Part shown: positions 3,810-39,869 of the stretch, piece after piece
How the letters are laid out: every line of letters starts with the position of its first letter
Numbering within the stretch: the first letter of the stretch is position 1
From: Alphaproteobacteria bacterium
Lineage (GTDB): Bacteria; Pseudomonadota; Alphaproteobacteria; UBA6615
DNA: 64,000 bases
Direction of reading: 5' to 3'
NCBI GenBank assembly: GCA_021774575.1
Contig: JAJFIX010000023.1
Span: forward strand, 4,166 to 68,165
The notes under the pieces: model-generated
Database searches by the model: none
Told to the model about the DNA's origin: nothing
Seen by the model: only the letters and a program-made list of their open reading frames with translations
Position numbers and translations under genes: made by a program

Positions 3810-3887
3810 CAGGCGCGGCCCGAAATGGAATCCTAGGATAGTTTTATGCAATCGTTTGCACAGCTTTCTAAGGCAGAGGAAAAATTT

Positions 3888-5272: not shown

Positions 5273-6739
5273 ATGGCACCTGACAGTCTGCCGGCCCTCA
5301 AAACCGGACTTTTCATTGGCGGCGCATGGCGGGACGCTTCGGATGGCGGCACCATCGAGGTGATCAACCCGGCAACCGAAACGGCGATTGCGTCGGTTGC
5401 CAGCGCGACGGCCCAAGACGCCATGGCAGCGGTTGATGCGGCGGATTTGGCCGCGCCGGCTTGGGCGGCGACGAGCCCACGTGAGCGCTCCGAAATCCTA
5501 CGTCGGGCTTTCGATCTTATGACCGCTCGTAAGGATGAAATTGCTCGGCTGATTGTTTTAGAAAACGGCAAGGCGCTGCCCGACGCCCAGGGCGAGGCGG
5601 CCTATGCCGCCGAGTTCTTCCGTTGGTATGCCGAAGAGGCGGTGCGCAATATCGGCGATCTCTATACCGCGCCTTCGGGGGCAAATCGCATCATGGTGAC
5701 CCAGCAACCGGTCGGTATTGCGCTGTTGATTACGCCGTGGAATTTTCCTGCGGCAATGGGCACCCGCAAGATCGGCCCGGCGCTTGCCGCCGGATGCACG
5801 GTGATCTTAAAACCGGCATCGGAGACACCGCTGACTGCGTTACTGATTGCCGATATTTTGGCCGAGGCCGGTGTCCCCGACGGGGTGGTTAATGTCATTT
5901 CCGCGCGTGGGTCTTCGGGGGTGCTGGAACACATCCTTGACGATGATCGGGTGCGCAAACTGTCTTTCACCGGCTCGACGGAAGTGGGGCGAACCTTGCT
6001 GCGCCAGGCAGCGAACACAATCGTCAACTGCTCGATGGAGTTGGGCGGGAACGCACCTTTTCTGGTGTTTGCCGATGCCGATATCGATGCGGCGGTCGAG
6101 GGTGCCATGGTGGCAAAAATGCGCAATGGGGGCGAGGCCTGCACGGCGGCCAATCGGTTTTATGTCGAAGCCTCGGTGGCAGATATATTTGCCGAGAAAT
6201 TTGCCACCGCCATGTCGGCGTTGAAAGTCGGCCCCGGCCTGGATGCGGATGTGCAACTCGGGCCACTGGTTAATGCCGAGGCGCGCGAGACCGTGCAGGC
6301 CTTTGTCACCGATGCGCTGGACCGTGGGGCGAAGCTGGTTACCGGTGGGCTGGTCACCGGCGGCGCGGCTCCCGAGGGTACCGGTTATTTTTACCCGCCG
6401 ACGGTGCTCTCTAATGTCGATCCGAAATCGGATCTTTGCCATGATGAAATTTTTGGGCCGGTGGCGCCGATCATTCCGTTTACCTCCGAGGACGAGGCCG
6501 TCGCACAGGCCAACGACACCGAATATGGACTGATTTCATATATTTATACCGCCGACATCGCCAAGGGATTGCGCGTTGCCGAGCGGATAGACTCAGGAAT
6601 GGTCGGGCTCAACCGTGGTGTGATCTCGGATCCCGCCGCGCCGTTCGGCGGCATGAAGCAGAGCGGCATTGGGCGGGAGGGCGCCCATGACGGCATGCTC
6701 GAATTTTTAGAGAAAAAATATATTGCGCTCAGCTGGTAG
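5273..6739 (+). CDS. NAD(P)+-dependent aldehyde dehydrogenase (succinate-semialdehyde dehydrogenase-like)
   Basis: ALDH signatures: ITPWNFP, FTGSTEVG, MELGGNAP, catalytic Cys in NGGEACTAANR, and the C-terminal GGMKQSGIGREG. Confidence 0.9.
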   Translation: MAPDSLPALKTGLFIGGAWRDASDGGTIEVINPATETAIASVASATAQDAMAAVDAADLAAPAWAATSPRERSEILRRAFDLMTARKDEIARLIVLENGKALPDAQGEAAYAAEFFRWYAEEAVRNIGDLYTAPSGANRIMVTQQPVGIALLITPWNFPAAMGTRKIGPALAAGCTVILKPASETPLTALLIADILAEAGVPDGVVNVISARGSSGVLEHILDDDRVRKLSFTGSTEVGRTLLRQAANTIVNCSMELGGNAPFLVFADADIDAAVEGAMVAKMRNGGEACTAANRFYVEASVADIFAEKFATAMSALKVGPGLDADVQLGPLVNAEARETVQAFVTDALDRGAKLVTGGLVTGGAAPEGTGYFYPPTVLSNVDPKSDLCHDEIFGPVAPIIPFTSEDEAVAQANDTEYGLISYIYTADIAKGLRVAERIDSGMVGLNRGVISDPAAPFGGMKQSGIGREGAHDGMLEFLEKKYIALSW

Positions 6740-7760
6740 GCGGAACTTGGCCCGTTGACCCGCGTACGACAAGGTGCGGGGTCAACTCCATTGTGCCTGT
6801 TTTTGGGTTTTCGCCTGACAGGCGCCCAAGCATTGCTTGGGCGGCAGCCGCCCCCATTTTCCTGAGAGGGACGCTGACGGTTGTCAATGGCGGAGCCAAG
6901 CGGTCGACGATCGGCATGTCATTGAAGCCGACGATGGAAATGTCGGCCGGGCAGTTTAAATTCAGCGCCTCACTCGCCGCGTAACATCCCAAGGCTTGCA
7001 TATCGTTCCCGGCGACAATTGCCGTTGGCGGTGACGGCTGGTCCATCAGCGCAATCAGGGCCCGCTGACCCTCGGCCTCGCTGAAGGCATCGCAGGCGGC
7101 GATATTGGCAGGGGGACAGTCGAGACCATGGGCGGCCATGGCATGGCGAAACCCGGCAATTCTGCGATGGCCGGTTGACAGTCTTTCCGGACCGGCGATA
7201 TGGGCAATGCGCCGGTGGCCGAGGGCCGCCAGATGATCGACGGCGACCCGAATGCCCGCAGCATCGTCGGTCAGGATACAGTCAATATTTTCGACCTGGG
7301 TGGCGCGGTTGATCAGCACCAAGGCAAGCTTGTCATCGATTATGTCGCGAACCAATTTATCGTCGCGCCGGGCGGTGGCGAGGATCAGGCCATCGACCTG
7401 ACGGCCACGCATGGCGGCGATTAATGTTTCTTCGCGCGCCGGGTCATTATCGGTGTTGGCCAGGATTACCGTGTAATTTGACTGACCGAGCACTTCCTCG
7501 ATGCCGCGTATGAGCGGGGGGAACACCGGATTGGTTAAGTCGGGAATGATCACCCCGATGGTAAAAGATCGACTGGTTCGAAGGGAATAAGCAAAAAGAT
7601 TGGGTCGGTAGCCAAGTTCCTTTGCCGCTGCGGCGACGGCGGTGGCAATTTCAGGGGAAACCATGCCGCGTGTCGCTGGATTAAGAACCCGCGACACCGT
7701 TGATGAATGGACGCCGACCTTGGCGGCCACGTCTTTTAAGGTTATGCGCTCGTTGCTCAT
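6729..7760 (-). CDS. LacI-family transcriptional regulator
   Basis: N-terminal HTH ITLKDVAAKVGVHSSTVSRVLN followed by a periplasmic-binding-protein-like sugar-binding fold. Start taken at MSNERITL (7760). The ORF extends to 7877, and ATGs at 7787 and 7781 are alternatives. Confidence 0.85.
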   Translation of the reverse strand: MSNERITLKDVAAKVGVHSSTVSRVLNPATRGMVSPEIATAVAAAAKELGYRPNLFAYSLRTSRSFTIGVIIPDLTNPVFPPLIRGIEEVLGQSNYTVILANTDNDPAREETLIAAMRGRQVDGLILATARRDDKLVRDIIDDKLALVLINRATQVENIDCILTDDAAGIRVAVDHLAALGHRRIAHIAGPERLSTGHRRIAGFRHAMAAHGLDCPPANIAACDAFSEAEGQRALIALMDQPSPPTAIVAGNDMQALGCYAASEALNLNCPADISIVGFNDMPIVDRLAPPLTTVSVPLRKMGAAAAQAMLGRLSGENPKTGTMELTPHLVVRGSTGQVPPTS

Positions 7761-7891
7761 TTTCCCTGGGCTCGACTGCATCTTCATGTTTTGCCTTCGT
7801 AAGGCTCTTGGCGTATAAAATTTCACCATGTTCTGCAAACGATTGCACGAACATTCGTTCATGAGAGTTTTAAGCATTGAAGGGTGATCTA

Positions 7892-8827
7892 ATGGCCGAG
7901 ATAGATTTGAAAAAATATTCCATTGGCTGGATTGGTGCCGGACGTATGGGATATCCGATGGCCGAACGGTTAATCAAGGCTGGCTGTGATGTTACAGTCT
8001 ATAACCGGACCAAGGCCAAAGCAGAGCCCCTGGCCGCCCTGGGAGCCAAGCTCGCCGATAGTCCGGCCGATCTTGCGGATCGTGATATTGTCTTTACCAT
8101 GGTCTCCGGCCCAGCCGATTTGCTGCAGGTGACTGGCGGGGAGCAAGGTGTCTTGTCGGTTTCGGGAACAGTGCCGAAAATGCTCATCGATTGTTCGTCG
8201 GTATCTGAGGAAGCTTCGGCCGAAGTGCGTGCGGCGGCGGCAAAACTTGGAGTGGCGATGCTGGCCGCGCCGGTCAGCGGCAATGGCAAAGTCGTCAAAG
8301 CCGGCAAACTTTCCATCGTTGCATCGGGGCCGCAAGAGAGTTTCGAAATCGCTGAGCCCTATCTTGATGTGATTGGGGTCGGGGTCTCTTATGTCGGCGA
8401 CGGCGAACTCGCGCGGATGGTCAAGATTTGCCACAATGTCCTGCTTGGGGTGGTTATCCAGAATTTGGCGGAAATAACCGTATTGGCGGAAAAAGGCGGC
8501 GTTCCGCGCCATGCCTTCCTCGATTTTATCAATAAGAGTGTGATGGGATCGATGTTTACCAAATATAAGACACCGGGCATGGTTAATCTCGATTACGCGC
8601 CGACCTTCACCCCGCCGCTTCTACGCAAGGATTTAGAGCTCGGGCTGGCAGCAGCCAAGCGGCTTGGAGTGCCGATGCCGGTAACCGTGACCACGTCAGA
8701 GATTGTCCAAGCGGCCATCGGCCTCGGGCATAGCGAAAAGGATTTCTCCATACTGCTCGATATGCAAGCCAAGGCGTCGGGGATGGAGCTGAAATCCGAA
8801 GAGATGGAGGTCGATACCGGCCTCTAA
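7892..8827 (+). CDS. NAD(P)-binding beta-hydroxyacid dehydrogenase (3-hydroxyisobutyrate / 2-hydroxy-3-oxopropionate reductase family)
   Basis: Rossmann motif IGWIGAGRMGYPMA, an SGxxxxxxxG-type central motif (PVSGNGKVVKAGKLSIVASG) and a 6PGDH-like C-domain. Divergent from the LacI gene. The ATG at 7892 has GAAGGG upstream. Confidence 0.85.
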   Translation: MAEIDLKKYSIGWIGAGRMGYPMAERLIKAGCDVTVYNRTKAKAEPLAALGAKLADSPADLADRDIVFTMVSGPADLLQVTGGEQGVLSVSGTVPKMLIDCSSVSEEASAEVRAAAAKLGVAMLAAPVSGNGKVVKAGKLSIVASGPQESFEIAEPYLDVIGVGVSYVGDGELARMVKICHNVLLGVVIQNLAEITVLAEKGGVPRHAFLDFINKSVMGSMFTKYKTPGMVNLDYAPTFTPPLLRKDLELGLAAAKRLGVPMPVTVTTSEIVQAAIGLGHSEKDFSILLDMQAKASGMELKSEEMEVDTGL

Positions 8828-8848: not shown

Positions 8849-9544
8849 CTAGTTAACAGTGGGCGTAATTTGCGCGATTAAATCCTCGATAGAGCCGCCG
8901 TTTCGGCGCAAAATCGTTGCAAATTCCGTCTTCTGGGACTGCAGAAAACTCTTATTATTGATCGCTAAATCCAGCACCTTCGGCTGGCCTTCAATAACGT
9001 CGATAGTCCAGATAATAGGCGACGAAAAATGATCGGTCACCAGGACCGTGTTGACTTCAAATCTCCGGTTCTCGGATTCAGGACTATCGATTTCATTTGT
9101 GGCAAATATCTCGAAATGCCCGGTTGTTGGGAGGTTATCAACAACTGTGCTCGCCACAAATTCGGTCAAGGCGACAATGAAATGTTCTTTTTCCTCGTCG
9201 CTTGCAGTGATCCAGTGGCGGCCGAGGGTCAGCCGGGCAATCGCTTCCGTGGCGAAGGACGTGGTAAATGTGTCGCGCATCGCGGCGCGGCGCTCCAGGG
9301 GCTCAAGGGACGCATCCGTCAGCGCTGTAACGCCCTGCGCAGTCAAAACCTGGATAAATTGAGGGGCAACTAGGCTATTTGAGCTGCCAGCCCCGTCGGG
9401 CATTGCTGTAACCGGCTGACTGATGGTGAGAAGCATCAACGCCCAGGCGGCGCACGCAATAAAATGCCTTGCGCCTGCGGTCATTATTTTACCACTTAGA
9501 GGTGAGTTGCCGTCATTGGTTTGTTTGTTCATCAGGCGGGTCAC
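8849..9544 (-). CDS. MlaC/Ttg2D-family periplasmic lipid-binding protein, paralog 1
   Basis: Signal-like N-terminus. Core resembles E. coli MlaC: LGRHWITASDEEKEHFIVALTEFVAST, then VLDLAINNKSFLQSQKTEFATILRRNGGSIEDLIAQI (compare MlaC [30 protein letters not shown]). Start is uncertain among 9544 GTG, 9532 ATG and 9484 ATG. Confidence 0.75.
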   Translation of the reverse strand: MTRLMNKQTNDGNSPLSGKIMTAGARHFIACAAWALMLLTISQPVTAMPDGAGSSNSLVAPQFIQVLTAQGVTALTDASLEPLERRAAMRDTFTTSFATEAIARLTLGRHWITASDEEKEHFIVALTEFVASTVVDNLPTTGHFEIFATNEIDSPESENRRFEVNTVLVTDHFSSPIIWTIDVIEGQPKVLDLAINNKSFLQSQKTEFATILRRNGGSIEDLIAQITPTVN

Positions 9545-9778
9545 TTCGAATTTGTTATTATCACTGAGGTGACGAACTGATATTGGGTATCTGAAATAAC
9601 AGAATACCCAGCAAGGGCTGATCGATGGCAGCCAGCGAGAGCCGCCTCGGCACCAGGGGACATTACCCCATAATTTAGTTGCTGAGAAAGCGCAAATTAG
9701 GGAAAATCGTTGCTATTAGGTCACAAATGGACCTGAAGTGCTGTGGATAGATGTGCTCTGGTTTTCGGGAGGCGGCGG

Positions 9779-10576
9779 TTATCCTGCGATTTCATCGATT
9801 AAGGCCGGGATTGATCCTCCCACTTGCCGTAAGATTTCGGCAAATTCCGCGCGTTGGGTCAGCAGGAAACTGCGCCCAGCAAAGGTTGCATCAAGTATGC
9901 GCAATTTGCCGTCGGTGGTAACCACGGACCACAAGACCTCGCCCTGGACGTCTGCGGATGAAAACAAGGACCTTACTTCAATGAGCGTGTCGGTCCGCTC
10001 CACCGCATCGACCTGACGTGCCGAAACAACCTCGATTCGGCCGTTCGGCGGAAATCCCTCAATGAGTTGCTTGGCCAGAAAACCGCCCAGGATTGCTCTA
10101 AATTGATCGCGTTCTCCCTCGTCGGCCTTGTTCCAGGCGCGGCCGAGGACGATCCGACTAATTTCCTGGGTAGCGAACTTTTGGTCGAAGAGATCACTGA
10201 AAAATTGACGCAATAGAGCCGGGCTGTTGGTTTGGTCGTTAAGCGCCGTAATGCTCGTCTGGGCGAGGTCGTTGATAAATTCTGGGGCTAGAGCAATAGA
10301 ATCCTGGCCATTCTGCGCCAATTGCAAAGGGGTGGCGGAGTTGATGGATCGCATATGTTCGGGCGACGATGGTGGGCCGGCCGCTAAGGGGGGCGTTACC
10401 AATGCTGCAGTTATTGCGATTAAAATACCTGCTCCGGCCGCAGTCCTCACAGAACTTGCGAGCAGGGATACGAAATATTTAGCCAACAGATTATTAGGAT
10501 ATTTCACTGAGCACCTATTCGTTAATGTTTTCGATTTTGCCGAAACGGCGAAAATTTGGAATTTAAAAATATTCAT
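9779..10576 (-). CDS. MlaC/Ttg2D-family periplasmic lipid-binding protein, paralog 2
   Basis: Contains LGRAWNKADEGERDQFRAILGGFLAKQL and ILDATFAGRSFLLTQRAEFAEILRQVGGSIPALIDEI, with a hydrophobic N-terminal signal/anchor. Confidence 0.75.
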   Translation of the reverse strand: MNIFKFQIFAVSAKSKTLTNRCSVKYPNNLLAKYFVSLLASSVRTAAGAGILIAITAALVTPPLAAGPPSSPEHMRSINSATPLQLAQNGQDSIALAPEFINDLAQTSITALNDQTNSPALLRQFFSDLFDQKFATQEISRIVLGRAWNKADEGERDQFRAILGGFLAKQLIEGFPPNGRIEVVSARQVDAVERTDTLIEVRSLFSSADVQGEVLWSVVTTDGKLRILDATFAGRSFLLTQRAEFAEILRQVGGSIPALIDEIAG

Positions 10577-10606
10577 GCTGGCGCGAATGGCGCAGCTGTT
10601 TTGCGG

Positions 10607-11341
10607 CTAACGCCCCAATGTTTCAATGAGTCCATCCAAAGATCCTCCATTGCGTTGGAGAATGCGGTCAAAATCTCCCTTTTGCCCGAGAAGAAAGCTC
10701 GTCCGGGCAAAGGTAATATCAAGTATTTTCATTTCACCATCGACCGTTGCCACGATCCATGGAACTCTGGCGGAAAAATTTTGGCCGACAAAAACGGTCA
10801 CTACTTCGGTCTGCGGTAAGCCGAGCTCCGATTGTCCGGCCAGGGAGGCGCCGCGTACCTGAAAGCGACCATCGGGCACCCGGTCAATGATGACGTCGGC
10901 CAAGTGGATCGCCAGCACATCAAGAAAGGCGTCGCGCTGCTCTATCGATGCCGTTGACCAGATGCGACCGAGGACCGCCTGGCCGATTTGCTCCGACGCA
11001 AAAGCCGAGGAAAAAATTTGGCGAAATATCTCATGGGCCAATTGCCGACTTGTCTGGGCTTGGGTCAACGCGGCAAGACCCGCATCGATCACGGTGTCGA
11101 CGAAAATTGACGCGACATTGGTCGGGTCATCTGGCGCCTGAAAAATCCAGCGCGGCCCAATCGGTGTCGCGTTTTGGTTCGCAATTGGGCGAGCGGTCTC
11201 GGCAAAGCCAATGCTTGAAGTGAAAATTGCCACAGCTAGGCAAAATGCCAAACTCGCACCCGCTGTCGCAACAGGGCCGAAGGACACGAGAATTGCCGCG
11301 CCTGCGCGCCTAATTGAGTTATGTATAAATACTGTATTCAC
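10607..11341 (-). CDS. MlaC/Ttg2D-family periplasmic lipid-binding protein, paralog 3
   Basis: Contains LGRIWSTASIEQRDAFLDVLAIHLADVI and ILDITFARTSFLLGQKGDFDRILQRNGGSLDGLIETL, with an N-terminal signal/anchor. Confidence 0.75.
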   Translation of the reverse strand: MNTVFIHNSIRRAGAAILVSFGPVATAGASLAFCLAVAIFTSSIGFAETARPIANQNATPIGPRWIFQAPDDPTNVASIFVDTVIDAGLAALTQAQTSRQLAHEIFRQIFSSAFASEQIGQAVLGRIWSTASIEQRDAFLDVLAIHLADVIIDRVPDGRFQVRGASLAGQSELGLPQTEVVTVFVGQNFSARVPWIVATVDGEMKILDITFARTSFLLGQKGDFDRILQRNGGSLDGLIETLGR

Positions 11342-11671: not shown

Positions 11672-11685
11672 TTGACCTGGATCAA
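11672..11685. promoter_or_regulatory. candidate FNR/CRP-family binding site TTGACCTGGATCAA
   Basis: TTGA-N6-TCAA palindrome matching 9 of 10 specified positions of TTGAT-N4-ATCAA. It lies in the AT-rich 500-bp divergent intergenic region, about 160 bp upstream of the ATG at 11843. An Fnr-type regulator with the ETVSR recognition motif is encoded in the downstream operon. Confidence 0.45.
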
Positions 11686-11842
11686 GTTTTTCTTCCAAAA
11701 TTCCAATAAAGACCATGATTAGGCGGAATAAACGGTAAAATGTTGATGCATGTCAATGTTCCACCCGTATTCGGTCACTACTTTTCAATTATCAATATTG
11801 CCATTGTTCTCTGTTCGAGAGCGCTCCAAAAAGGAGATCCCA

Positions 11843-13240
11843 ATGACCCCTAAACTATCAAAACTTTTTCGACTCGTTATTGCCCCGGCGGCTCTGTCTG
11901 TTGCGCTCATGGTTCAGCCGGTGGCCGGATCGTTTGCGCAATCCGACGGCCCCGGCGATGGTTGGACAACGCCGCTTGCCGAGCAACTCGGTGTTCGATT
12001 GGTCCAACGGTTCGATTCCTCGGGTGAAGATGCCTGGGATCCGCTAGCCCATCCCAACGTCTTTATTACAACCGAGGGGCCCGGATATGGCGGCCTGTTA
12101 AGTGGTGTCACCCAGCCGGGTATCGCTATTATTGACTCCGATACCCGTGAAGTTGTGGCTCATCAGAGCTATGACGTTCTCGCCCTTGGCTGGGAAAATG
12201 TGTTCGAACCCCACGGGCTCGGCGTTTCTCCTGACGGGCAATGGATTTATCTGCCAAGTGGCGAGGGATCCTTTTCCTCGGTCGGCAAAGGTCGGTTGCT
12301 GGTCATTAACGCGCGCACACTGAAACTGGACAAAATTTTAGGACTGCGCGGTCAACCCCATCACGCCAAATCCTTCACGATGCCGGACGGAACGGGCCTT
12401 GCCTATGTTTATGGCTGGGGCCAACCGATGTTTGCGATGGACCCCAGTGATGATAATCGCGTTGTCGGGGGATTGGATTTCAATGCAATGGGTATCGAGG
12501 GATATCTATATTTTGCCTCCCCCGAGGGCGACGAGATCATTGCCAGTGGGCGTTTTCGACGCGGTGTAGCGAGAAATGAGTTACATGGCAATGTGATGGT
12601 TCGCATCGATACGTCTGACTGGAGCTTGATTGACTATGTTCCAGTTGCTGACAGCACCCCTGTCTGGGTCTCTTTTAGCGCAGACGGCGAGAATGCGTAT
12701 TTCAGCGGTGGTCACTCTAGCCTCGTATTCAAATACGACCGGATCGGGGACGAGGTGACGTCGCACGCACGCGCTGGCGTTGAAGGTCCGTACGGTGTGC
12801 ATTTAGGTTGGGATGACACCTTCCTTTATGCGGTTGGCAAGGGCGAAGGATCCCACAATCGCGGTAAAGTATTGGGGCTTATCAATACCGATCTGATGGA
12901 TAGGTCAACCCGGCCAATGGATCAGTTTACGACAAACTGCTTGCGTGGCGATCACGGCACGCTTCATCCTGATCCGGATGCGAATGAGTTGTGGATTACC
13001 TGCAATTCGAGCTTTGAAATTGTGGTTTTTGACCTCGACCGTAACGAAGTCTCAGCCAGAATTCCGATGCCGAACGGTGGTAGCACTCACTCCGGCTCTT
13101 TCCTTCAATATGCAGGCTGGAATGGCGAAGTCGTCGCCGACCAGAACGGGCTTCAAGGCAGCGCACTTACCCTGAAGCGCCAACTGCTCGGGTTGGAGGG
13201 TGCCGAAACGGTGCCCGCCGATGAGCTAGTGGGCGACTAA
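11843..13240 (+). CDS. secreted beta-propeller protein with recurrent blade histidines; function unknown, possible metallo(copper)-oxidoreductase
   Basis: The ATG at 11843 is preceded by AAGGAG. Sec signal MTPKLSKLFRLVIAPAALSVALMVQPVAGSFA. Repeated propeller-like segments carry His (EPHGLGVSPDGQWIY, QPHHAKSF, GGHSSLVF, YGVHLGWDD, GDHGTLHPDPDANELW, GGSTHSGSF). The coding call is solid and the functional call is speculative. Confidence 0.7.
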   Translation: MTPKLSKLFRLVIAPAALSVALMVQPVAGSFAQSDGPGDGWTTPLAEQLGVRLVQRFDSSGEDAWDPLAHPNVFITTEGPGYGGLLSGVTQPGIAIIDSDTREVVAHQSYDVLALGWENVFEPHGLGVSPDGQWIYLPSGEGSFSSVGKGRLLVINARTLKLDKILGLRGQPHHAKSFTMPDGTGLAYVYGWGQPMFAMDPSDDNRVVGGLDFNAMGIEGYLYFASPEGDEIIASGRFRRGVARNELHGNVMVRIDTSDWSLIDYVPVADSTPVWVSFSADGENAYFSGGHSSLVFKYDRIGDEVTSHARAGVEGPYGVHLGWDDTFLYAVGKGEGSHNRGKVLGLINTDLMDRSTRPMDQFTTNCLRGDHGTLHPDPDANELWITCNSSFEIVVFDLDRNEVSARIPMPNGGSTHSGSFLQYAGWNGEVVADQNGLQGSALTLKRQLLGLEGAETVPADELVGD

Positions 13241-13344: not shown

Positions 13345-14616
13345 ATGTTTGCGCGACGAATGACCAAGGAGATGGCTGTGCTGAACAAACTGAAATCGAA
13401 TGCCGGATTAGGTGTCATTGCCGGAGCGGCCATTTGCACCACTGCAATTTTCCTTGTTGTTTCAAGCAGCGCCCAATCCCAAGCGCCTGCGATCAGCGAC
13501 GCGTCGCCGCAAGTTGAAAACGGCCGGGACATATTTATGACAGCGGGGGGCGTTGGTTGTGCAGCCTGTCACGGAATTTTTGGTGAAGGCGATGTCGGCA
13601 TCGGCCCTTATGCGCGCGGTGTGAATAGGGCGTCGATCGACGCGGCGCTAGAATCCATTGCCGAAATGTCCTTCCTTCGAAGTTCGGTACGCGGCCAATC
13701 CATCGACGATATTGCTGCCTATACGGAGTGGCTCGGCAATCATCAACTGGTAAAGACCCTCGCCAAGCGCGGCCGTTTTATTCCCGACAGCGTATCCGTC
13801 CGTCCAAACACATTGATCCAGCTGGTTATATCTAATGCCAGCCGGTTTCCCCGCACCTTTGCCAGTGACGATATGGGTATCGGTGAGATTTCCGTGGATG
13901 GACGTGAGGTCGCAGAAATTATCTGGACGTCGCCTAGTGAGGAGGGAACTTTCACCCTACGTTGCTTGGATTGCCGGATTACCGATCAGCAACTTTCTAT
14001 CCAAATTTCGAATGACGCTGCGCCCTTCACCCCCGTTTCTGGGCCACCGGTTGAGGTGGCGAATACGCCTGCACCAGCCGTTCAGACAGCGGCGGATTTG
14101 GACTTGATCGACCGCGGTCGAGATATTTTTCTCAATGCCGGTGAGGTGGGGTGCACGGCCTGTCATGGCTCTTACGCCGAAGGCGATGTTGGAATTGGTC
14201 CTTATAATAGAGGCCTCGATGAAGACGATATTCGTCTGGCGTTGGCTAATGTCGATGCGATGCGTTTCCTGCAGCAACAACTAGACGATGAACAAATTCA
14301 TCAAGTCGCTGCCTATTACGGATGGCTGGGTGATCACCAGCTTTTCAAAACGCGCATGATCCGTGGGCAATTCTTTCCGAATAGAATTCGGGTGGCGCCG
14401 GGGGCGGCTATTCAGTTGGCGATTACCAATCGCGCTCGTTCCCCTGGTGCATTTTTTAGCGCCGACATGGGGATTGAACCCTTCGTTGTCCAAGGTTTGG
14501 AGACGGTCGATTTTTTCTGGACCGCGCCAAGGGTTGAAGCCGAATTCACCCTGCGCTGCGCCGATTGCGCGACATCAGATTGGCTGACCATCGAGACGAC
14601 GCAGGCTGCACGATAG
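13345..14616 (+). CDS. periplasmic di-haem protein: internal duplication of [class-I cytochrome c + cupredoxin-like beta-sandwich]
   Basis: Two CxxCH motifs (CAACH at 13558-13572, CTACH at 14152-14166) lie exactly 594 nt (198 aa) apart. Each is followed by FxPxxxxVxPxxxIQLxIxN ... FTLRCxDC. N-terminal signal/anchor present. Start is uncertain between 13345 and 13378. Confidence 0.8.
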   Translation: MFARRMTKEMAVLNKLKSNAGLGVIAGAAICTTAIFLVVSSSAQSQAPAISDASPQVENGRDIFMTAGGVGCAACHGIFGEGDVGIGPYARGVNRASIDAALESIAEMSFLRSSVRGQSIDDIAAYTEWLGNHQLVKTLAKRGRFIPDSVSVRPNTLIQLVISNASRFPRTFASDDMGIGEISVDGREVAEIIWTSPSEEGTFTLRCLDCRITDQQLSIQISNDAAPFTPVSGPPVEVANTPAPAVQTAADLDLIDRGRDIFLNAGEVGCTACHGSYAEGDVGIGPYNRGLDEDDIRLALANVDAMRFLQQQLDDEQIHQVAAYYGWLGDHQLFKTRMIRGQFFPNRIRVAPGAAIQLAITNRARSPGAFFSADMGIEPFVVQGLETVDFFWTAPRVEAEFTLRCADCATSDWLTIETTQAAR

Positions 14617-14635: not shown

Positions 14636-16063
14636 ATGACAAATTTGAATGTCGCCAACCGCCCGTCCTTCAAGCCCGTCCGAAGAACTTGGGCCGCTGT
14701 GGGCCGATCCTGGGGAGGGTCGCATCCCCGGCTGGTCGCAATTTTTTCCTTACTTGCCGCTCTCGTCGTCTCGTCTGCTTGGCTAGCATTTCCCTATATT
14801 CTTGAAGGCCGTGGGCTCATTGCCGATGTCGGCGACACGGTGCAGACCGAGCGCCGCGACCGCGCGACTACGGTCGGGCAGCTGCTCACCCGTTATGCCG
14901 ATGGGCTGGGCGGGGCGGAAATCGACATGCTCTACGCGACACCGCGTTTTTTCGAAATCGCGGGGCAAGCCTCAAGCTATGATCAATACCGGCCCGATCA
15001 ATACATTGTGTTTATGATTAATGAGACGACCCATATCGAGGACCTGCCGCAACAGTTGCCCGAGGCGACCTTGATCGTCGATGGAAAGACGTATCAACCG
15101 GTCGATATTGAAGGGCCCATTGATGTCGTTCACCATCGATCCTCAACGGTTCGTTTTGCCGCGATTGACGCCAATGGCCAGCCGATTATTCCTGCCGATA
15201 CAAGCGAAATTGAACTCAGCCTTGTCGGCGATTGGGGCGACGCCGGGATGCCACGTACCGCATCATGGGATTTGCCGATCGATTATGCCGAGACCTATGA
15301 CGCAGGAATTTGGACACCTGTGATGGTTTTTGCCCTTGCGGCGGGCTTGTTGTCGGCAGTTTTGACCCCGTGTTTGCTGCAATTGCTGGCGGTTTATTTT
15401 GTCACCCTTGTTGGAGTTTCGGCTGAGAGTGGTGGTGGTAGTGGCAGTGCTTCTGCCTCCGGCCCTGGGGGCCGAAAAATGTTATATGCAGCGCTGGCGT
15501 TTGTGGCCGGTTTTACAGTTCTCTACACGGTTGCGGGTGCCGCGATCGGCTATGCCGGCAAGGAAATGCAGATATTGTCTGCCGAATGGAGCCGTCACGT
15601 TGGCATTGCGTCGGGACTTTTGATCATTGCAATGGCAATTTGGTTCGGTATCAGGTCGCGGGCACCGATGGTCTGTAAAATCCCGTTGCCCGGCGCGGTT
15701 GCTCGGTTTGACAAACGCGGCGTCATCGGCTCGGCGCTCGTCGCCGCCGGTTTTTCGCTGGGCTGCATGACATGCTTTAGCGGTGCGATTGTCGCGACCC
15801 TCCTCGTCTATGTCGGTGCGTTGGGGAGTGCCTCAATCGGAGCACTGGTTCTCTTCCTGTTCTCGATCGGTGTTGGAATTCCGTTCTTGGCCGGAGCGCT
15901 GTTCCTGTCCCGAGCCACTCGGGCAATGGCATGGGTGTCGAAATTTTCGCCCCAGATCGGTTTCGTTTCGATGGTGCTGATGGCTGGGTTCGGCGTGCTC
16001 CTGATTACCGATAATTTTCACGAAGTGAGCAATCTCATTTACCCATGGCTCGGTTTGGGGTGA
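14636..16063 (+). CDS. membrane protein: N-terminal anchor + ~190-aa periplasmic domain + CcdA/DsbD-like (cytochrome c biogenesis transmembrane region) domain
   Basis: The C-terminal half is polytopic with membrane-embedded Cys (AVLTPCLLQLL and SLGCMTCFSG), as in thiol-disulfide or metal transporters of the CcdA/DsbD family. RBS GGAAAGGGAAAAG. Confidence 0.7.
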   Translation: MTNLNVANRPSFKPVRRTWAAVGRSWGGSHPRLVAIFSLLAALVVSSAWLAFPYILEGRGLIADVGDTVQTERRDRATTVGQLLTRYADGLGGAEIDMLYATPRFFEIAGQASSYDQYRPDQYIVFMINETTHIEDLPQQLPEATLIVDGKTYQPVDIEGPIDVVHHRSSTVRFAAIDANGQPIIPADTSEIELSLVGDWGDAGMPRTASWDLPIDYAETYDAGIWTPVMVFALAAGLLSAVLTPCLLQLLAVYFVTLVGVSAESGGGSGSASASGPGGRKMLYAALAFVAGFTVLYTVAGAAIGYAGKEMQILSAEWSRHVGIASGLLIIAMAIWFGIRSRAPMVCKIPLPGAVARFDKRGVIGSALVAAGFSLGCMTCFSGAIVATLLVYVGALGSASIGALVLFLFSIGVGIPFLAGALFLSRATRAMAWVSKFSPQIGFVSMVLMAGFGVLLITDNFHEVSNLIYPWLGLG

Positions 16064-16105
16064 ACCGGAATGCTGGTTGATTGGTTCCAATTTGGAGGTA
16101 GGAAA

Positions 16106-16447
16106 ATGAAAAAACTTTTGATCCATGCGGCTTTGGCATTCTTTGTCCTGACGCCGGTTGTCCTGGCGTCAGGGGCAGCAAATGCGGCCGAGCGCGATAT
16201 CACGTTGACTGTTCTCATGACTTGCCCGACGTCCGAACCACCGTTGGTCCGAAAAACGCTGCTTGACGTCAATGGCGTGAGCGAGGTCGCGGTATCCTAT
16301 TCAGACAAAAATGCATATGTGATTTTCGATGATGCGGTGACGAATGAAATGGAACTGATTGCCGCGATTAATGAGATTGGGCTGCGGACGTCACGTGATG
16401 AGGATGGGGGGGATATGGAAGCCATGGATGATATGAGCGAAATGTAA
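16106..16447 (+). CDS. secreted HMA-like (heavy-metal-associated fold) protein with degenerate metal motif and Asp/Met-rich tail
   Basis: GGAGG RBS. Signal MKKLLIHAALAFFVLTPVVLASGAANA. MTCPTS replaces the canonical MTCxxC, followed by VNGVSEVAVSYSDKNAYVIFDD (HMA beta-alpha-beta-beta pattern). C-terminus is DEDGGDMEAMDDMSEM. Confidence 0.55.
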   Translation: MKKLLIHAALAFFVLTPVVLASGAANAAERDITLTVLMTCPTSEPPLVRKTLLDVNGVSEVAVSYSDKNAYVIFDDAVTNEMELIAAINEIGLRTSRDEDGGDMEAMDDMSEM

Positions 16448-16490: not shown

Positions 16491-17660
16491 ATGACAAGTT
16501 TCAAATCAATGATGGTCTTAAGCGCCGGATTTCTCCTTTTGGGTACGGCGGTTGCATTCGCTGTGCGAGAACCAAATGTGTCGCTCGCCGTTAGTGATAT
16601 TGAAAAATATGTGTTCGTTCCCAGTTTGGGGTCGGCCGACATTACGGTGATTGACAGTCGGAATAATTCTGTTGTCGGGACGATTGATCTTGACGAAATC
16701 CCGGACCGGTTGGTCGTGTCTTCCGCCGTCGGCCAGCTTATTGTCAGCAATCTAGAAAGTCGCACCGTTACATTGATCGATATAGAGACCGGCGATGAGA
16801 CTGCCGAGATCGCCCTAGATATAACGCCGCAATCCCTGGTCATGAGCCCCGAGGGGTATCTGGTCGCTGTGAGCGATGTTGATGCCGGCGTCGTCGCCGT
16901 GATTTCGTTGCACCGTGGCGTTGAAGTTTCGAGGATAGACAATCTTTCGGCGCCCTCTGGGTTAACTTTCAGCGATGATGGGTCGTTACTTTATGTTCCA
17001 GATGGTGCGTCAAATTCGATCAAACTTATCGATATCGTCCAAGGTAGGGCGTTTGGGGAGTTACCACTATCTGCTGGCAACCCTGATGGAGTAGGCGACC
17101 CGGAAATGCTCAGCGCCGTCACCAGAAGTGCCAATGGTCGCTTTGGCTTTTGCGCCATCGGTCATGCCGAGGAGCTTGCCATATTTGATTTTGGAACCGA
17201 GCAACGGGTCAAGACGCTCAAATTGGGTAACCAGCCTTCGCGGCCTTTCGGCACCGCGGATGGGCGATATATTATGGTGGCAAACAACGGTGATCGCACC
17301 GTGTCGATTATTGATACGCAGACCTTTGATATTGCCGCAACGCTGCCCGGGGCCGCCGATGTTACAGCAATTAACACCGGTTGGTTTGAGACCGTGGCCT
17401 TCGTCATCAGCGAAAGTGAGGACAAAGCGATCATCCTCGACCTCATGGATTTACGTAAATCTGGTGAGATTGAATTACCGAGTTCTCCCGGTCCAGGTGT
17501 CGTGACTCCCGACGCAGCGACACTTTATGTTGCGCTTAGCGATACCGATAGCGTCGCGGTGATCGATACACGGTCACGCCGGGTGACGGCAATTATCGAT
17601 AATGTAGGAACCCAGCCGCGAGGCGCGACAATGGCGCGAACGAATAATTATTGCCATTAG
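16491..17660 (+). CDS. secreted YVTN-family beta-propeller repeat protein
   Basis: Signal peptide. Repeated motifs of the type LYVPDGASNSIKLIDI, IMVANNGDRTVSIIDTQT and LYVALSDTDSVAVIDTRS. Confidence 0.8.
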   Translation: MTSFKSMMVLSAGFLLLGTAVAFAVREPNVSLAVSDIEKYVFVPSLGSADITVIDSRNNSVVGTIDLDEIPDRLVVSSAVGQLIVSNLESRTVTLIDIETGDETAEIALDITPQSLVMSPEGYLVAVSDVDAGVVAVISLHRGVEVSRIDNLSAPSGLTFSDDGSLLYVPDGASNSIKLIDIVQGRAFGELPLSAGNPDGVGDPEMLSAVTRSANGRFGFCAIGHAEELAIFDFGTEQRVKTLKLGNQPSRPFGTADGRYIMVANNGDRTVSIIDTQTFDIAATLPGAADVTAINTGWFETVAFVISESEDKAIILDLMDLRKSGEIELPSSPGPGVVTPDAATLYVALSDTDSVAVIDTRSRRVTAIIDNVGTQPRGATMARTNNYCH

Positions 17661-17704
17661 GCCCGACACCCTAGGTCAGCAACAAACTCGGGAGGTTGTG
17701 CAAA

Positions 17705-18361
17705 ATGAAAGAAAATTTTCGCCTTGGAATATATGGCAGCCTGGGACTGCTGCTTTGCGCCGCTACCGTAGCCGCCCTGTTGCTGATTAATAATCGCTTG
17801 GCGCCTGAAATCTCGGATCCGCCGCTTGAAATTGATGCGGCAATTATCGACCCAGGGGGACCATTTGCACTGGTCGATCATCAAGGAAAATCGGTAACCG
17901 ACCGTGATTTTCTCGGTCGATATCTACTGGTTAATTTTGGTTATACATTCTGTCCCGACATTTGCCCCACGACGCTCGGCCAAATTACCGTCGCGATGGA
18001 CCTGCTCGGTGAGAATGCGAACAAGGTTCAACCCGTGTTTATCACCGTCGATCCGGAGCGGGACTCAATTGAAGTTTTGGCCCGCTATATGAATTTTTTT
18101 CACCCTCAATTGATCGGCTTGACCGGCTCATCCGACCAGATCGCCAATGTCGCCCGGGTCTATATGGTTCACTACGCCCAGGCCGAGAGGGTCGAAGAGG
18201 CAAGCTATTATTCGGTCGATCACAGTAGCTTCATATACCTCATGGGGCCGGAAGGAGAATTTAGGGACGTCATTGCTTATGGAACTCTACCGCAGGAAAT
18301 GGCGTCGCTCATTGAGCGCCATATTTCAAACGATAGCTCGGCGTCCGGGGACGGCCAGTAA
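17705..18361 (+). CDS. SCO1/SenC family copper chaperone / thiol-disulfide oxidoreductase
   Basis: N-terminal TM anchor, CPDICP motif (FGYTFCPDICPTT), and a conserved downstream His (VDHSSFIYLMGPEG). GGGAGG RBS lies before the ATG at 17705. Confidence 0.9.
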   Translation: MKENFRLGIYGSLGLLLCAATVAALLLINNRLAPEISDPPLEIDAAIIDPGGPFALVDHQGKSVTDRDFLGRYLLVNFGYTFCPDICPTTLGQITVAMDLLGENANKVQPVFITVDPERDSIEVLARYMNFFHPQLIGLTGSSDQIANVARVYMVHYAQAERVEEASYYSVDHSSFIYLMGPEGEFRDVIAYGTLPQEMASLIERHISNDSSASGDGQ

Positions 18362-18414: not shown

Positions 18415-19194
18415 ATGCCAATGAAAAAGCAAAAAGATCCACTTTGCGGCATGATACTTCATGCAGAGCGTGGCAAATGCGCTTCCTGCGAAGTTCGGGC
18501 ACTCTCAATCTGCGCGCCTCTGGATCGGTCCGCTCTGGAAGTGCTGGCTGACTTGTCGGAGGTGGTAAATTTTAGGAAGGGTGACAGTATCTGCGCCGAA
18601 GGCGATCCGGTGGATTATTTTTTTACCGTGCAGTCCGGGGCACTGAAGACGTGTCGGTTACAGTCGGGGCGCCGTGACCTTGTGACCGGCTTTTTGTTTG
18701 GCGGAGATTTCCTCGGCCTGGCATTCTTTGCCGGGCAAATTGAGGCGGATACTCATTACCCATATGCCGTCAGGGCCTTAAGCAAGGGCCGCCTGTGTCG
18801 GCTGCCAAGACAGGCATTTTCCAAATTCATTGCCGATTATCCGCTTATTGAGAAACAAATTTTGGCAAAAATTTCGTTGAAACTGGAGCAGGCGGAAAAT
18901 CATATCCTGTTGCTTGGCAGAAAGAATGCGCGAGAAAAAATCTCTTCTTTCATTTTGCAACTTGATGACGCGCAGAGATTTGCTCGTCAAAATCTGGAGA
19001 GTGATTTTCAAGGTGTCGATACCGTTGATTTTCCTTTGGCGCGCCATGATATTGCCGATTACCTGGGAATGACTCCCGAAACAGTCAGCCGTGCCTTAAC
19101 TCAGCTGAAGGAAGACGGCTTGATCCGGCAACTCAGCTCACGCTGTGTTGCGCTCGTCCAGCGACAAATGTTGGAAGAGATAGCCGCAGGGTAG
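18415..19194 (+). CDS. Crp/Fnr-family transcriptional regulator, FnrN/FnrL-type with N-terminal Cys cluster
   Basis: N-terminal C11, C22-x2-C25-x7-C33 plus central Cys residues. Contains a cNMP-binding-like beta-roll. C-terminal HTH HDIADYLGMTPETVSRALTQLKEDG carries the E--SR motif used by FNR to read TTGAT half-sites. Confidence 0.9.
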   Translation: MPMKKQKDPLCGMILHAERGKCASCEVRALSICAPLDRSALEVLADLSEVVNFRKGDSICAEGDPVDYFFTVQSGALKTCRLQSGRRDLVTGFLFGGDFLGLAFFAGQIEADTHYPYAVRALSKGRLCRLPRQAFSKFIADYPLIEKQILAKISLKLEQAENHILLLGRKNAREKISSFILQLDDAQRFARQNLESDFQGVDTVDFPLARHDIADYLGMTPETVSRALTQLKEDGLIRQLSSRCVALVQRQMLEEIAAG

Positions 19195-20329: not shown

Positions 20330-20531
20330 GGGCTGTGTACTGTTCTGAGTTGTGGCGAGACCGTGGCTTGGACATCGGGGGAATCAATGAATATCGAAAC
20401 ACTGCCTTCAGCGGCAGTGTGCTGCTCTTGGCAAGGTATAACCTGTCGGGGTTGCGCAAATGTGGGGGCGTGCTTTGGACGATAACCGTTTTCGATCGCG
20501 GTTATTTGGCCGGCCGTTTTCTTGCCGATTA

Positions 20532-30982: not shown

Positions 30983-31042
30983 TACCTGACGGTGACAGGC
31001 CAAAGAGGCCAATGTTGCTGTTTTACCGATGGAGAAATCAAA

Positions 31043-32317: not shown

Positions 32318-32411
32318 TCTGTCGACGAATTGATTGGACGGTCGGAGCGCTAAGTCACTGGCGCTCCGGCCTCTGGTTTTTCCAAAACCATCATGAGAAC
32401 ACCGGGTGCCT

Positions 32412-34034: not shown

Positions 34035-34037
34035 GGG

Positions 34038-35896: not shown

Positions 35897-35899
35897 ATC

Positions 35900-36595: not shown

Positions 36596-36597
36596 GC

Positions 36598-37479: not shown

Positions 37480-37510
37480 TCGCCGATATAGAAAAGAGAG
37501 GGTGGCAAAA

Positions 37511-37813
37511 TTGCTCCTGACACCACGCGAAAAAGATAAACTCCTAATTTCGATGGCCGCCATCGTGGCCCGGCGCCGTCTTGAGCGGGGCGTCAAGCTG
37601 AACCATCCCGAAGCGATTGCCCTGATTTCAGATTTCGTCGTCGAGGGCGCGCGCGATGGACGCGCGGTTGCCGAATTGATGCGTGACGGCGCCACGGTAT
37701 TGACCAGGGACCAGGTCATGGAGGGGGTTGCCGAAATGATACGCGACATTCAAGTCGAAGCGACCTTTCCCGACGGGACCAAATTGGTCACCGTTCATGA
37801 ACCAATTCGTTGA
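37511..37813 (+). CDS. ureA: urease subunit gamma
   Basis: (M)[38 protein letters not shown] is the canonical UreA N-terminus. A TTG start at 37511 gives the canonical 100 aa (GAGAGGGTGG upstream). GTG at 37502 is an alternative. The ATG at 37430 lies inside ureD. Confidence 0.9.
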
Positions 37814-37826
37814 GTGAGGTGAGCCA

Positions 37827-39855: not shown

Positions 39856-39869
39856 TTGATGGATTTTTG

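What the first reader, a model, noticed from the sequence alone, without database searches (positions are those of the whole stretch)
11843..13240. Beta-propeller with one histidine per blade-like segment, suggesting a hub metal centre
Segments spaced roughly one propeller blade apart carry His in similar local contexts: EPHGLGVSPDG, QPHHAKSF, ELHGNV, GGHSSLVF, YGVHLGWDD, GDHGTLHPDPD and GGSTHSGSF. Histidines lining the central channel of a seven-bladed propeller are how multinuclear copper sites are built in N2O reductase (CuZ) and thiocyanate dehydrogenase. I cannot align this protein confidently to either by eye.
Basis: inference. Interest (0 to 1): 0.6.

Follow-up and report, generated by a model that had tools for sequence, protein, structure and literature searches.

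The report
Uncharacterised histidine-hub propeller redox enzyme operon
This gene encodes a widespread but unstudied periplasmic seven-bladed propeller protein whose invariant histidines sit where known copper propeller enzymes bind their metal, and it travels with a cytochrome c partner and copper-insertion genes, so it is probably a new copper oxidoreductase of unknown substrate.

Summary
The ORF at 11843-13240 (+) is real and has its own ribosome-binding site. It is predicted with confidence to be a seven-bladed YVTN/lactonase-type propeller. Across 78 homologues (down to 32% identity), H124, H173, H174, H371 and H416 are invariant or nearly so, and H375 is 90% conserved. H248, H291 and H320 are not conserved.

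H124, H173/H174, H371 and H416 lie at the N-terminal ends of the innermost strands of four adjacent blades. NosZ H326 and TcDH H381 bind copper at the same motif position. I could not obtain model coordinates, so convergence at the axis is inferred, not measured.

The gene heads a conserved operon:
- a cytochrome c plus bis-Cys cupredoxin-like protein, fused to the propeller in Woeseiaceae;
- a DsbD-like membrane protein with a periplasmic His3 site;
- a second propeller ending in Cys-His;
- Sco1, with PCuAC or YtkA-like chaperones elsewhere;
- an FnrL-like regulator, with two FNR boxes upstream.

Distant relatives carry fused type-1 copper or cytochrome c domains.

The protein fails the family models for NosZ clades I-III, and TcDH matches only weakly. 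Best reading: a new copper-type propeller oxidoreductase induced at low oxygen, substrate unknown.

The parts
11672..11685 (.). FNR/CRP-type box TTGACCTGGATCAA, 158 bp upstream of the start codon
   Evidence: One mismatch to TTGAT-N4-ATCAA. Two of the four such sites in the 64-kb window lie in this 500-bp intergenic region. The identical box lies at -87 in the closest related locus L001.
11743..11756 (.). Second FNR/CRP-type box TTGATGCATGTCAA
   Evidence: Similar boxes lie at -91 to -114 in L005, L071 and L080.
11832..11836 (+). Ribosome-binding site AGGAG for the ATG at 11843
11843..13240 (+). Protein A, 465 aa: Sec-type signal peptide (judged by eye), then a 7-bladed YVTN/lactonase-type propeller. 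Predicted catalytic subunit.
   Evidence: No Pfam or NCBIfam family hit.
12050..12052 (+). H70 codon in the conserved N-terminal extension (92% conserved; specific to this subfamily)
12212..12214 (+). H124 codon (P-H-G-x3-S-P-D-G, start of the blade I inner strand), invariant
   Evidence: Same motif and spacing as NosZ H326 and TcDH H381.
12359..12364 (+). H173-H174 codons (start of the blade II inner strand), invariant across the whole superfamily
   Evidence: H173 aligns with TcDH copper ligand H482.
12839..12856 (+). Loop K333-G-E335-G-S-H338 (blade V B-C loop). K, G and E are conserved in the superfamily; S-H-N is invariant in this subfamily. pLDDT is below 50.
12950..12967 (+). D370-H371 (start of the blade VI inner strand; superfamily-invariant) through H375 (90%)
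13088..13090 (+). H416 codon (just before the blade VII inner strand), invariant
13345..14616 (+). Protein B: two tandem modules, each a monohaem cytochrome c (CxxCH with a conserved Met) plus a cupredoxin-like domain with CxxC and no His
   Evidence: A single-module version is fused to the C-terminus of A in 12 of the 120 best homologues.
14636..16063 (+). Protein C: DsbD/CcdA-type membrane protein. Invariant periplasmic H133, H166 and H167; invariant C246, C377 and C380, C347 97% conserved.
   Evidence: Present in 40 of 62 related loci with enough flank.
16070..16447 (+). Protein D: periplasmic HMA/MerP-like protein with a single Cys (MTCPTS). All family scores are below their cut-offs.
   Evidence: Elsewhere found only in L001.
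16491..17660 (+). Protein E: second YVTN propeller without hub His, ending in the conserved C-terminal motif [ST]-N-N-x-C-H
17696..18361 (+). Protein F: Sco1/SenC copper chaperone with C86-x3-C90 and H176
18415..19194 (+). Protein G: FnrL/FNR-like regulator with C-x2-C-x7-C and the E-x2-S-R recognition helix

Best explanation
Protein A is the catalytic subunit of an uncharacterised periplasmic metallo-oxidoreductase linked to cytochrome c. Its seven-bladed propeller presents H124, H173/H174, D370/H371 and H416 at the top of the central channel, from the N-terminal ends of the inner strands of four adjacent blades. The loop K333-G-E335-x-S-H338-N adds further residues. Together these most likely hold two or three copper ions and the acid/base residues of the active site. 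Electrons pass between the respiratory chain and this site through protein B: a His/Met haem c, then a cupredoxin-like domain whose copper-ligand Cys is kept and whose His ligand is replaced by a second Cys. Proteins C (membrane protein with a periplasmic His3 site and invariant or near-invariant Cys residues), D (HMA-like), E (propeller with a Cys-His tail) and F (Sco1) deliver copper and keep the thiols reduced during assembly in the periplasm. An FNR-type regulator switches the operon on at low oxygen. The substrate is unknown; by analogy it should be a small inorganic or volatile molecule. Shown here: the fold, the conservation, the operon, the fusions and the FNR boxes. Inferred: the hub geometry, copper at the hub, the direction of electron flow and the roles of C, D and E.
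For: A confident 7-bladed propeller. Five His plus D370, K333 and E335 are invariant or nearly so across a superfamily sampled down to 22% identity. His are enriched among conserved positions. DSSP places H173/H174 and H371 in the first residues of inner strands, and H124 and H416 just before them. The motif P-H-G-x3-S-x-D-G is shared with NosZ ligand H326 and TcDH H381. A two-blade sub-profile hits TcDH-family chains at E = 1.5e-10, with H173 aligned to copper ligand H482. Cytochrome c/cupredoxin is fused to A in Woeseiaceae, and the fused model has pTM 0.83. Distant relatives carry fused type-1 copper or cytochrome c domains. Across 62 loci with enough flank, cytochrome c is present in 50, the DsbD-like gene in 40, the second propeller in 19 and Sco1 in 16. 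PCuAC and YtkA-like, multicopper-oxidase-like and blue-copper genes occur in other lineages. Sco1 has its CxxxC and His. FNR boxes and an FnrL-like regulator are present.
Against: No coordinates were available, so His-His distances were never measured. No model of a known metalloenzyme family is met. The best structural neighbours are non-metallo lactonase or YVTN proteins. Sco1 and PCuAC may serve only the Cys-containing cupredoxin domain of B, which leaves the hub metal undefined; it could be Fe or Zn. The bis-Cys cupredoxin domain, the second propeller and Sco1 are missing from many Chloroflexi-type loci. FNR boxes were found only in alpha- and betaproteobacterial loci.
Confidence: 0.58

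Rival explanations
1. It is a dehydrogenase like thiocyanate dehydrogenase. A trinuclear copper hub oxidises a sulfur compound (thiocyanate, sulfide, methanethiol or dimethylsulfide) and passes the electrons to cytochrome c (B) and on to a high-affinity oxidase.
For: TcDH-family chains are the best characterised-enzyme match for blades I-II (E = 1.5e-10), with H173 aligned to H482 and the H124 motif identical to that of H381. TcDH also has Lys, Glu, Asp and about 7 His in its site and uses a c-type cytochrome. A DddP-like M24 gene with aldehyde and hydroxyacid dehydrogenases lies next to the operon in the window and in 9 related loci.
Confidence: 0.2
2. It is a reductase for a nitrogen oxide (N2O or NO), built on the NosZ plan (propeller hub plus cupredoxin plus cytochrome c) but from an unrelated lactonase-type propeller. 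It would be a further N2O-reductase-like lineage.
Against: [quoted passage not shown] There is no CuA motif. Only 5-6 hub His are present instead of 7. No nos, nir or nor genes occur in the window or in 80 related loci. A study that added the clade III reference sequences found none in Woeseiaceae-rich sands.
Confidence: 0.13
3. It belongs to a copper-handling or tolerance system. A would be a periplasmic copper-binding protein or an oxygen-independent Cu(I) oxidase that uses cytochrome c, working with ScsB-like C, Sco1 and the HMA-like protein.
For: Every accessory gene is a copper or thiol-handling type. A multicopper-oxidase-like gene and a blue-copper gene sit directly upstream in L046. 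Cu(I) is more toxic without oxygen (general knowledge), which fits FNR control.
Against: No copper-sensing regulator (CueR, CopRS) and no efflux pump is linked. The invariant Lys/Glu/Asp/Tyr set looks catalytic. Fusion to electron-transfer domains is kept across the superfamily.
Confidence: 0.12
4. It is a non-redox YncE/YVTN-type binding protein or a lactonase-like hydrolase, and the conserved His are structural or bind Zn or Ca.
For: The best fold matches are the YVTN S-layer protein, 6-phosphogluconolactonases and YncE. Public annotation calls it a YncE family protein.
Against: Identity to these is 11-18%. No lactonase or YncE model is met for A. Recurrent fusion to cytochrome c or cupredoxin domains and the conserved copper-chaperone operon have no explanation under this reading.
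Confidence: 0.05

Closest known systems
Thiocyanate dehydrogenase (TcDH; PDB 5F75, 5OEX, 8Q9X)
   Same: A periplasmic propeller-only enzyme of about 470 aa, 7-bladed, with His-lined hub copper ions plus Lys, Glu and Asp, and a c-type cytochrome partner. Blades I-II match TcDH-family chains at E = 1.5e-10, with H173 on H482 and an identical H-x4-S-P-D-G motif at H124/H381.
   Different: No whole-protein sequence match. The other blades do not match. The order of ligand-bearing blades differs. The signal peptide is Sec-type, not Tat. The accessory genes differ: Sco1, a DsbD-like protein and a second propeller here, against CopCD or Cus plus a sigma-54 regulator in TcDH clusters.
Nitrous oxide reductase NosZ, clades I and II
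   Same: The same logic of a 7-bladed propeller hub site fed by a cupredoxin domain, and in some clade II enzymes by a fused cytochrome c. The His sits at the same blade-motif position as CuZ ligand H326. Low-oxygen regulation is shared.
   Different: No CuA motif: CxxC without His here, against C-x3-C-x3-H-x2-M in NosZ. Five or six hub His from four or five blades, against seven from six. No nosRDFYL genes. Model scores are far below their cut-offs.
Clade III lactonase-type NosZ (L-NosZ, NCBIfam NF052460; He et al. 2025, cited in PMC13477213)
   Same: A lactonase/YVTN-type propeller recruited as a redox enzyme. Canonical nos accessory genes are absent and cytochrome genes lie nearby.
   Different: The window protein gives no hit at E <= 10. 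Family members score under 20 bits and distant superfamily relatives at most 53 bits, against a cut-off of 700, and the registers are inconsistent.
SBP56 / methanethiol oxidase MtoX
   Different: No sequence-model hit for A. MtoX is an oxidase, not cytochrome-linked. The conserved residues differ.
YVTN / YncE / 6-phosphogluconolactonase propellers
   Different: They lack the invariant His/Asp/Lys/Glu set, the roughly 100 extra residues of conserved insertions, the redox-domain fusions and the copper-maturation operon.

Membership tests
NosZ clade I/II | Matches the NosZ family models (TIGR04244 or TIGR04246, cut-off 625 bits) | tested here: not met
   The window protein has no hit. Family members reach at best E = 6.7e-7. 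In the members scanned individually, propeller hits score 10-13 bits and the fused P0058 hit (14.9 bits) lies in the cupredoxin part. hhalign probability is 1%.
NosZ clade I/II | Seven CuZ His (H129, H130, H178, H326, H382, H433, H494 in P. stutzeri) | tested here: not met
   Only motif-level equivalence of H124 with H326 (blastp E = 0.3). Five to six hub His, with a different distribution over the blades.
NosZ clade I/II | C-terminal CuA cupredoxin domain (H583, C618, C622, H626, M629) | tested here: not met
   A has no such domain. The partner or fused domain has C-x2-C and no conserved His.
NosZ clade I/II | nosR/D/F/Y/L accessory genes in the cluster | tested here: not met
   The neighbours are cytochrome c/cupredoxin, a DsbD-like protein, an HMA-like protein, a YVTN propeller, Sco1 and FNR. 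There is no nosZ in 80 related loci.
Clade III L-NosZ | Matches NF052460 (cut-off 700 bits) | tested here: not met
   No hit for the window protein at E <= 10. Members scanned individually score 11-17.5 bits (best family E = 3.3e-6) and distant superfamily relatives up to 52.6 bits, in shifting registers.
Thiocyanate dehydrogenase | Whole-protein sequence similarity to TcDH (5F75) | tested here: not met
   No hit with the single sequence or the family profile at E <= 10. The superfamily profile gives E = 1e-5 over about 85 residues, against 1e-47 for a generic YVTN protein.
Thiocyanate dehydrogenase | Active-site set K103, H135, H136, Q156, H206, E288, D314, H381, H437, H482, H528, D529, R544 | tested here: inconclusive
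   Only two blades could be aligned: H173 on H482, H124 one column from H437, and the same motif as H381.
Thiocyanate dehydrogenase | Tat signal peptide (export of the folded protein) | tested here: not met
   The N-terminus MTPKLSKLFRLVIAPAALSVALMVQPVAGSFAQ has no twin-arginine motif (read directly from the sequence). TcDH is Tat-exported.
Lactonase (PF10282) / YncE (PF21783) / YVTN repeat | Passes the family model cut-off | tested here: not met
   No Pfam hit for A at E <= 0.01. NCBIfam YncE and yvtn models match some family members only weakly, far below the 400-bit YncE cut-off. The similarity is at fold level.
His-hub copper propeller oxidoreductases (functional class, not a sequence family) | Conserved His converge at the propeller axis | not testable with these tools
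   The structure tool returns no coordinates. Convergence is inferred from strand positions in DSSP and from motif equivalence with known ligands.
His-hub copper propeller oxidoreductases (functional class, not a sequence family) | Dedicated electron-transfer partner | tested here: met
   An adjacent cytochrome c gene in 50 of 62 loci, and fusions to cytochrome c, cupredoxin or type-1 copper domains.
His-hub copper propeller oxidoreductases (functional class, not a sequence family) | Copper is bound at the hub | not testable with these tools
   The evidence is only indirect: Sco1, PCuAC, YtkA-like and HMA-like genes in the cluster.

The most novel reading that the evidence does not exclude
The family is a previously unrecognised respiratory copper enzyme. 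The most striking version is a further lineage of nitrous oxide reductase, unrelated in sequence to the known ones, built from a lactonase-type propeller plus a bis-Cys cupredoxin and a cytochrome c. It would be carried by Woeseiaceae, Arenicellaceae, SAR202 and other Chloroflexi, Acidobacteriota and Gemmatimonadota. Woeseiaceae are abundant in sediments and, as I recall without having checked it here, have been described as N2O sources because many lack nosZ.
Probability: 0.12. Interest if true: 0.9.

Novelty: new variant of a known kind. Interest (0 to 1): 0.64.

Why it matters
As far as I recall, only NosZ, thiocyanate dehydrogenase and methanethiol oxidase are known to build a copper active site at a propeller hub, and each acts on a small gas or sulfur compound. 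This family would add another lineage. It has at least 85 clusters (at 50% identity) scoring E <= 1e-30, and it occurs in Woeseiaceae and many uncultured Chloroflexi, Acidobacteriota, Gemmatimonadota and Proteobacteria. It carries its own maturation genes: a DsbD-like protein with a His3 site, a propeller with a Cys-His tail, and a bis-Cys cupredoxin. None of these has been described in any paper I could find in the held library. If the substrate is N2O, NO or a volatile sulfur compound, marine-sediment and groundwater budgets for that compound would need revision. Even without a substrate, the operon gives a defined, testable system for copper-site assembly in the periplasm.

Tried and rejected
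- **Direct homology to NosZ.** I verified a P. stutzeri NosZ sequence against PDB 3SBP. hhalign against the family aligned only the fused cupredoxin part, at probability 1%. The best blastp pair was A 123-143 with NosZ 325-344, E = 0.3.
- **Membership of L-NosZ or Sec-type NosZ.** Hits were weak and their registers inconsistent. Rejected.
- **Whole-protein and family-profile searches of PDB sequences.** Only generic YVTN proteins were found. TcDH appeared only with a superfamily profile and a blade I-II sub-profile. A blade VI-VII sub-profile did not find it.
- **Measuring His-His distances.** Not possible: no coordinates are exposed.
- **Foldseek against AFDB50.** The library was unavailable.
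- **Plasmid collection.** No homologue.
- **Literature.** Ten full-text searches found no description of this family (for example). The He et al. 2025 paper is not held.
- **Periplasmic domain of protein C against PDB.** No match.
- **DosS identity of the GAF-GAF kinases in Chloroflexi loci.** No specific model matched, only NarX/NarQ-type kinase cores. Left open.
- **Cys366/Cys387 as metal ligands.** Rejected. They are present together in only about half of the family, so a disulfide is more likely.

Full report
**The object.** The finding's coordinates match a real gene. The longest ORF runs 11750-13240. The ATG at 11843 is preceded by AGGAG at 11832-11836, and all homologues begin there. 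The product (465 aa) starts with a Sec-type signal peptide without a twin-arginine motif. This is read directly from the sequence.

No Pfam family matches it at E <= 0.01. No NCBIfam model comes near its cut-off.

**Checking the histidine pattern.** Histidine is not over-represented: 13 of 465 residues. Conservation is what matters. I collected 80 related loci from species-representative genomes. Nearly all are MAGs of Woeseiaceae, Arenicellaceae, Porticoccaceae, Alpha- and Betaproteobacteria, Chloroflexota including SAR202, Acidobacteriota, Gemmatimonadota, Trueperaceae and Acidimicrobiia. I aligned 77 full-length homologues, down to 32% identity, with the window protein.

- Present in 100%: H124, H173, H174, H338, H416.
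- H371 in 99%, H70 in 92%, H375 in 90%.
- H320 in 36%, H291 in 51%, H248 in 14%.

Eight of 13 His are at least 90% conserved, against 63 of 452 other residues (odds ratio 9.9, p = 1.4e-4).

A search of 1.84 billion cluster representatives found 1585 proteins at E <= 1e-3, 269 at E <= 1e-10 and 85 at E <= 1e-30. In a 43-sequence alignment of full-length representatives down to 22% identity, Y136, H173, H174, K333, D370, H371, P376 and H416 are invariant. H124, Y317 and E335 are at least 90% conserved. H338, H70 and H375 mark the subfamily of the window protein.

**Where the histidines sit.** The structure tool gives no coordinates, so I could not measure distances. The argument is topological.

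The sequence has seven A-B units and seven C-D units of the YVTN repeat. DSSP places the inner (A) strands at about 123-129, 171-179, 219-225, 273-278, 316-321, 369-374 and 418-424.

- H124 sits immediately before the first strand residue.
- H173 and H174 are the third and fourth residues of their strand.
- H371 is the third residue of its strand.
- H416 is two residues before its strand.

In a closed propeller all A strands line the channel, and their N-termini lie on one face. These residues, from blades VI, VII, I and II, must therefore ring the channel mouth.

H338 lies in the B-C loop of blade V, on the same face. That loop has pLDDT below 50, as cofactor-dependent loops often do. Blades III and IV contribute E219 and P273 instead of His.

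The local motif of H124 (P-H-G-x3-S-P-D-G-x-W) has the same spacing as two known copper-ligand motifs:
- the P. stutzeri NosZ CuZ ligand H326 (P-H-G-x3-S-S-D-G-K-Y), with the sequence verified against PDB 3SBP, positions, and the ligand list from PMC8179356;
- the TcDH active-site His381 (A-H-Q-A-G-F-S-P-D-G).

**Relation to known copper propellers.** The family is not NosZ. There are no usable hits to the clade I, II or III models. hhalign matches only the fused cupredoxin part, at probability 1%. There is no CuA motif, and no nos genes occur nearby or in any related locus.

It is not TcDH by whole-protein criteria either. However, a sub-profile of blades I-II ranks TcDH-family chains third in the PDB (8q9x, E = 1.5e-10; 5f75, E = 2e-5). 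That is ahead of YncE and the lactonases. In this alignment H173 falls on TcDH H482, and H124 falls one column from H437. In the deposited chain 8yu5 the His aligned to H173 is replaced by Gln. Blades VI-VII give no such hit.

TcDH is therefore the closest characterised relative, but only distantly and only in part.

**The partners.** Downstream, on the same strand, lie the following genes.

- **B** has two modules, each a cytochrome c plus a cupredoxin-like domain. Across 23 modules the CxxCH motif, a Met (M108) and C207 are invariant, C210 is 96% conserved, and no His is conserved. A profile of the beta-sandwich domain hits a cupredoxin (4hcf, E = 3e-6) and nitrosocyanin (E = 5e-5). The first Cys aligns with the copper-ligand Cys. 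The second Cys sits three residues on, where C-x2-H cupredoxins have their His ligand (the ligand positions are from my knowledge of cupredoxins).
- **C** is a DsbD/CcdA-type membrane protein. H133, H166 and H167 in its periplasmic domain are invariant, as are C246, C377 and C380; C347 is 97% conserved.
- **D** is an HMA/MerP-like periplasmic protein, below the family cut-offs.
- **E** is a second YVTN propeller without hub His. It ends in a conserved [ST]-N-N-x-C-H carboxy-terminus.
- **F** is Sco1/SenC with CxxxC and His.
- **G** is an FNR-type regulator.

Among 62 related loci with enough flank, a cytochrome c gene follows A in 50. The DsbD-like gene is present in 40, the second propeller in 19 and Sco1 in 16. 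The order A-B-C-E-F is kept in 11.

Other lineages swap in equivalent parts:
- PCuAC between E and Sco1 in a betaproteobacterial contig;
- YtkA-like proteins, TlpA-like thioredoxins, a blue-copper protein and a multicopper-oxidase-like gene in Chloroflexota.

Distant superfamily members carry a C-terminal type-1 copper domain (H...C-x2-H-x2-M), a C-terminal cytochrome c or an N-terminal cytochrome c. Linkage to one-electron carriers across the whole superfamily is the strongest argument that the propeller is a redox catalyst.

**Regulation.** Two sites with one mismatch to TTGAT-N4-ATCAA lie at 11672 and 11743, in the 500-bp region upstream of A. Only four such sites occur in the 64-kb window, and 2.2 are expected by chance.

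Similar boxes lie 87-114 bp upstream of A in four alpha- and betaproteobacterial loci.

G is most similar to FnrL (138 bits, below the cut-off of 300). It carries C-x2-C-x7-C and the E-x2-S-R helix. From my knowledge of FNR proteins, these mark oxygen-sensing members that bind this box.

In 20 mostly Chloroflexota loci the cluster is instead flanked by a GAF-GAF-HisKA_3 kinase and a NarL-type regulator. That is the domain plan of DosS/DosR, but I could not confirm the identity.

**Interpretation.** The best-supported reading is a periplasmic oxidoreductase induced at low oxygen. Its active site is formed at the propeller hub by five superfamily-invariant His, with Asp, Glu and Lys, plus H338 in this subfamily. 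It is wired to the respiratory chain through haem c and a bis-Cys cupredoxin, and it is matured by copper- and thiol-handling proteins.

Copper at the hub is likely but unproven, because Sco1 and PCuAC might serve only the Cys-containing domain of B. The substrate is unknown. Ranked candidates:
- a sulfur-compound dehydrogenase on the TcDH model;
- a nitrogen-oxide reductase on the NosZ model;
- a copper-handling role.

No denitrification, sox or cyanase genes are linked.

**Verdict.** The protein is not a member of any described family. It is a new variant of the known kind "histidine-hub copper propeller oxidoreductase". I found no paper describing it in the held library.

Noticed in passing
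window 3846-5189 (also 1385-2749, 2751-3809, 5273-6739, 6729-7877 on the minus strand, 7877-8827); L009, L020, L021, L022, L024, L029, L030, L032, L069: A DddP-like M24 enzyme (NCBIfam DddP 108 bits over its full length, cut-off 600) sits beside the propeller operon in the window and in 9 related loci from three classes. It comes with an SSADH-like aldehyde dehydrogenase, a HIBADH-like dehydrogenase, a LacI regulator and ABC or TRAP transporters, and it often directly follows Sco1 on the same strand. This may be a functional link to catabolism of DMSP or another osmolyte.
   Followed up: partly
L048 11315-13029; also L051, L062 and two others: A SufS-type cysteine desulfurase and a SufU/NifU_N scaffold follow the DsbD-like gene inside the cluster in five Chloroflexota or Acidobacteriota loci. 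This raises the question of whether sulfur is supplied to the periplasmic site, as CuZ needs sulfide.
   Followed up: partly
window 17643-17660 (C-terminus of protein E): The second propeller ends in a strongly conserved [ST]-N-N-[LYF]-C-H carboxy-terminus (20 of 22 homologues). I know of no described counterpart. It may be a copper-binding tail, or a plug for the hub of protein A.
   Followed up: partly
window 14636-16063 (protein C): This DsbD-family membrane protein has an invariant periplasmic His3 set (H133, H166, H167) and a CxxC inside a transmembrane helix. It has no thioredoxin domain, and its N-terminal domain has no relative in the PDB. It may be a copper-insertion factor rather than a disulfide reductase.
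   Followed up: partly
L045 4622-7226; L048 13159-15773; L034 4700-7184 and about 17 other loci: A GAF-GAF-HisKA_3 sensor kinase with a NarL-type response regulator, and often an extra receiver-only protein, flanks the propeller gene in Chloroflexota-type loci. The architecture resembles DosS/DosR.
   Followed up: partly
P0182, P0192, P0179 (type-1 copper fusion); P0208, P0266 (C-terminal cytochrome c); P0239 (N-terminal cytochrome c): These belong to sister clades of the superfamily. They keep the PHG, HH, DH and DPHG motifs and the K-G-E loop, but they lack H338 and carry different fused electron-transfer domains.
   Followed up: partly
window 8849-11341 (minus strand): Three tandem, divergent MlaC/HpnM-like periplasmic lipid-binding protein genes lie directly upstream of the operon on the opposite strand.
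   Followed up: no
window 20460-30791: A giant 3443-aa protein made of DUF11, DUF7507 and CARDB repeats, probably a surface adhesin-like protein.
   Followed up: no
window 30992-42608: A Peripla_BP_5/6 substrate-binding protein and two branched-chain-type ABC permeases (30992-35153; substrate not identified), followed by a urease gene cluster: ureC-like at 37954-39855 and a fused UreE-UreF at 39867-41072.
   Followed up: no
protein A residues C366 and C387 (window 12938-12940 and 13001-13003): A Cys pair that is present or absent together in about half of the family. It is probably a periplasmic disulfide in blade VI rather than a metal ligand.
   Followed up: partly
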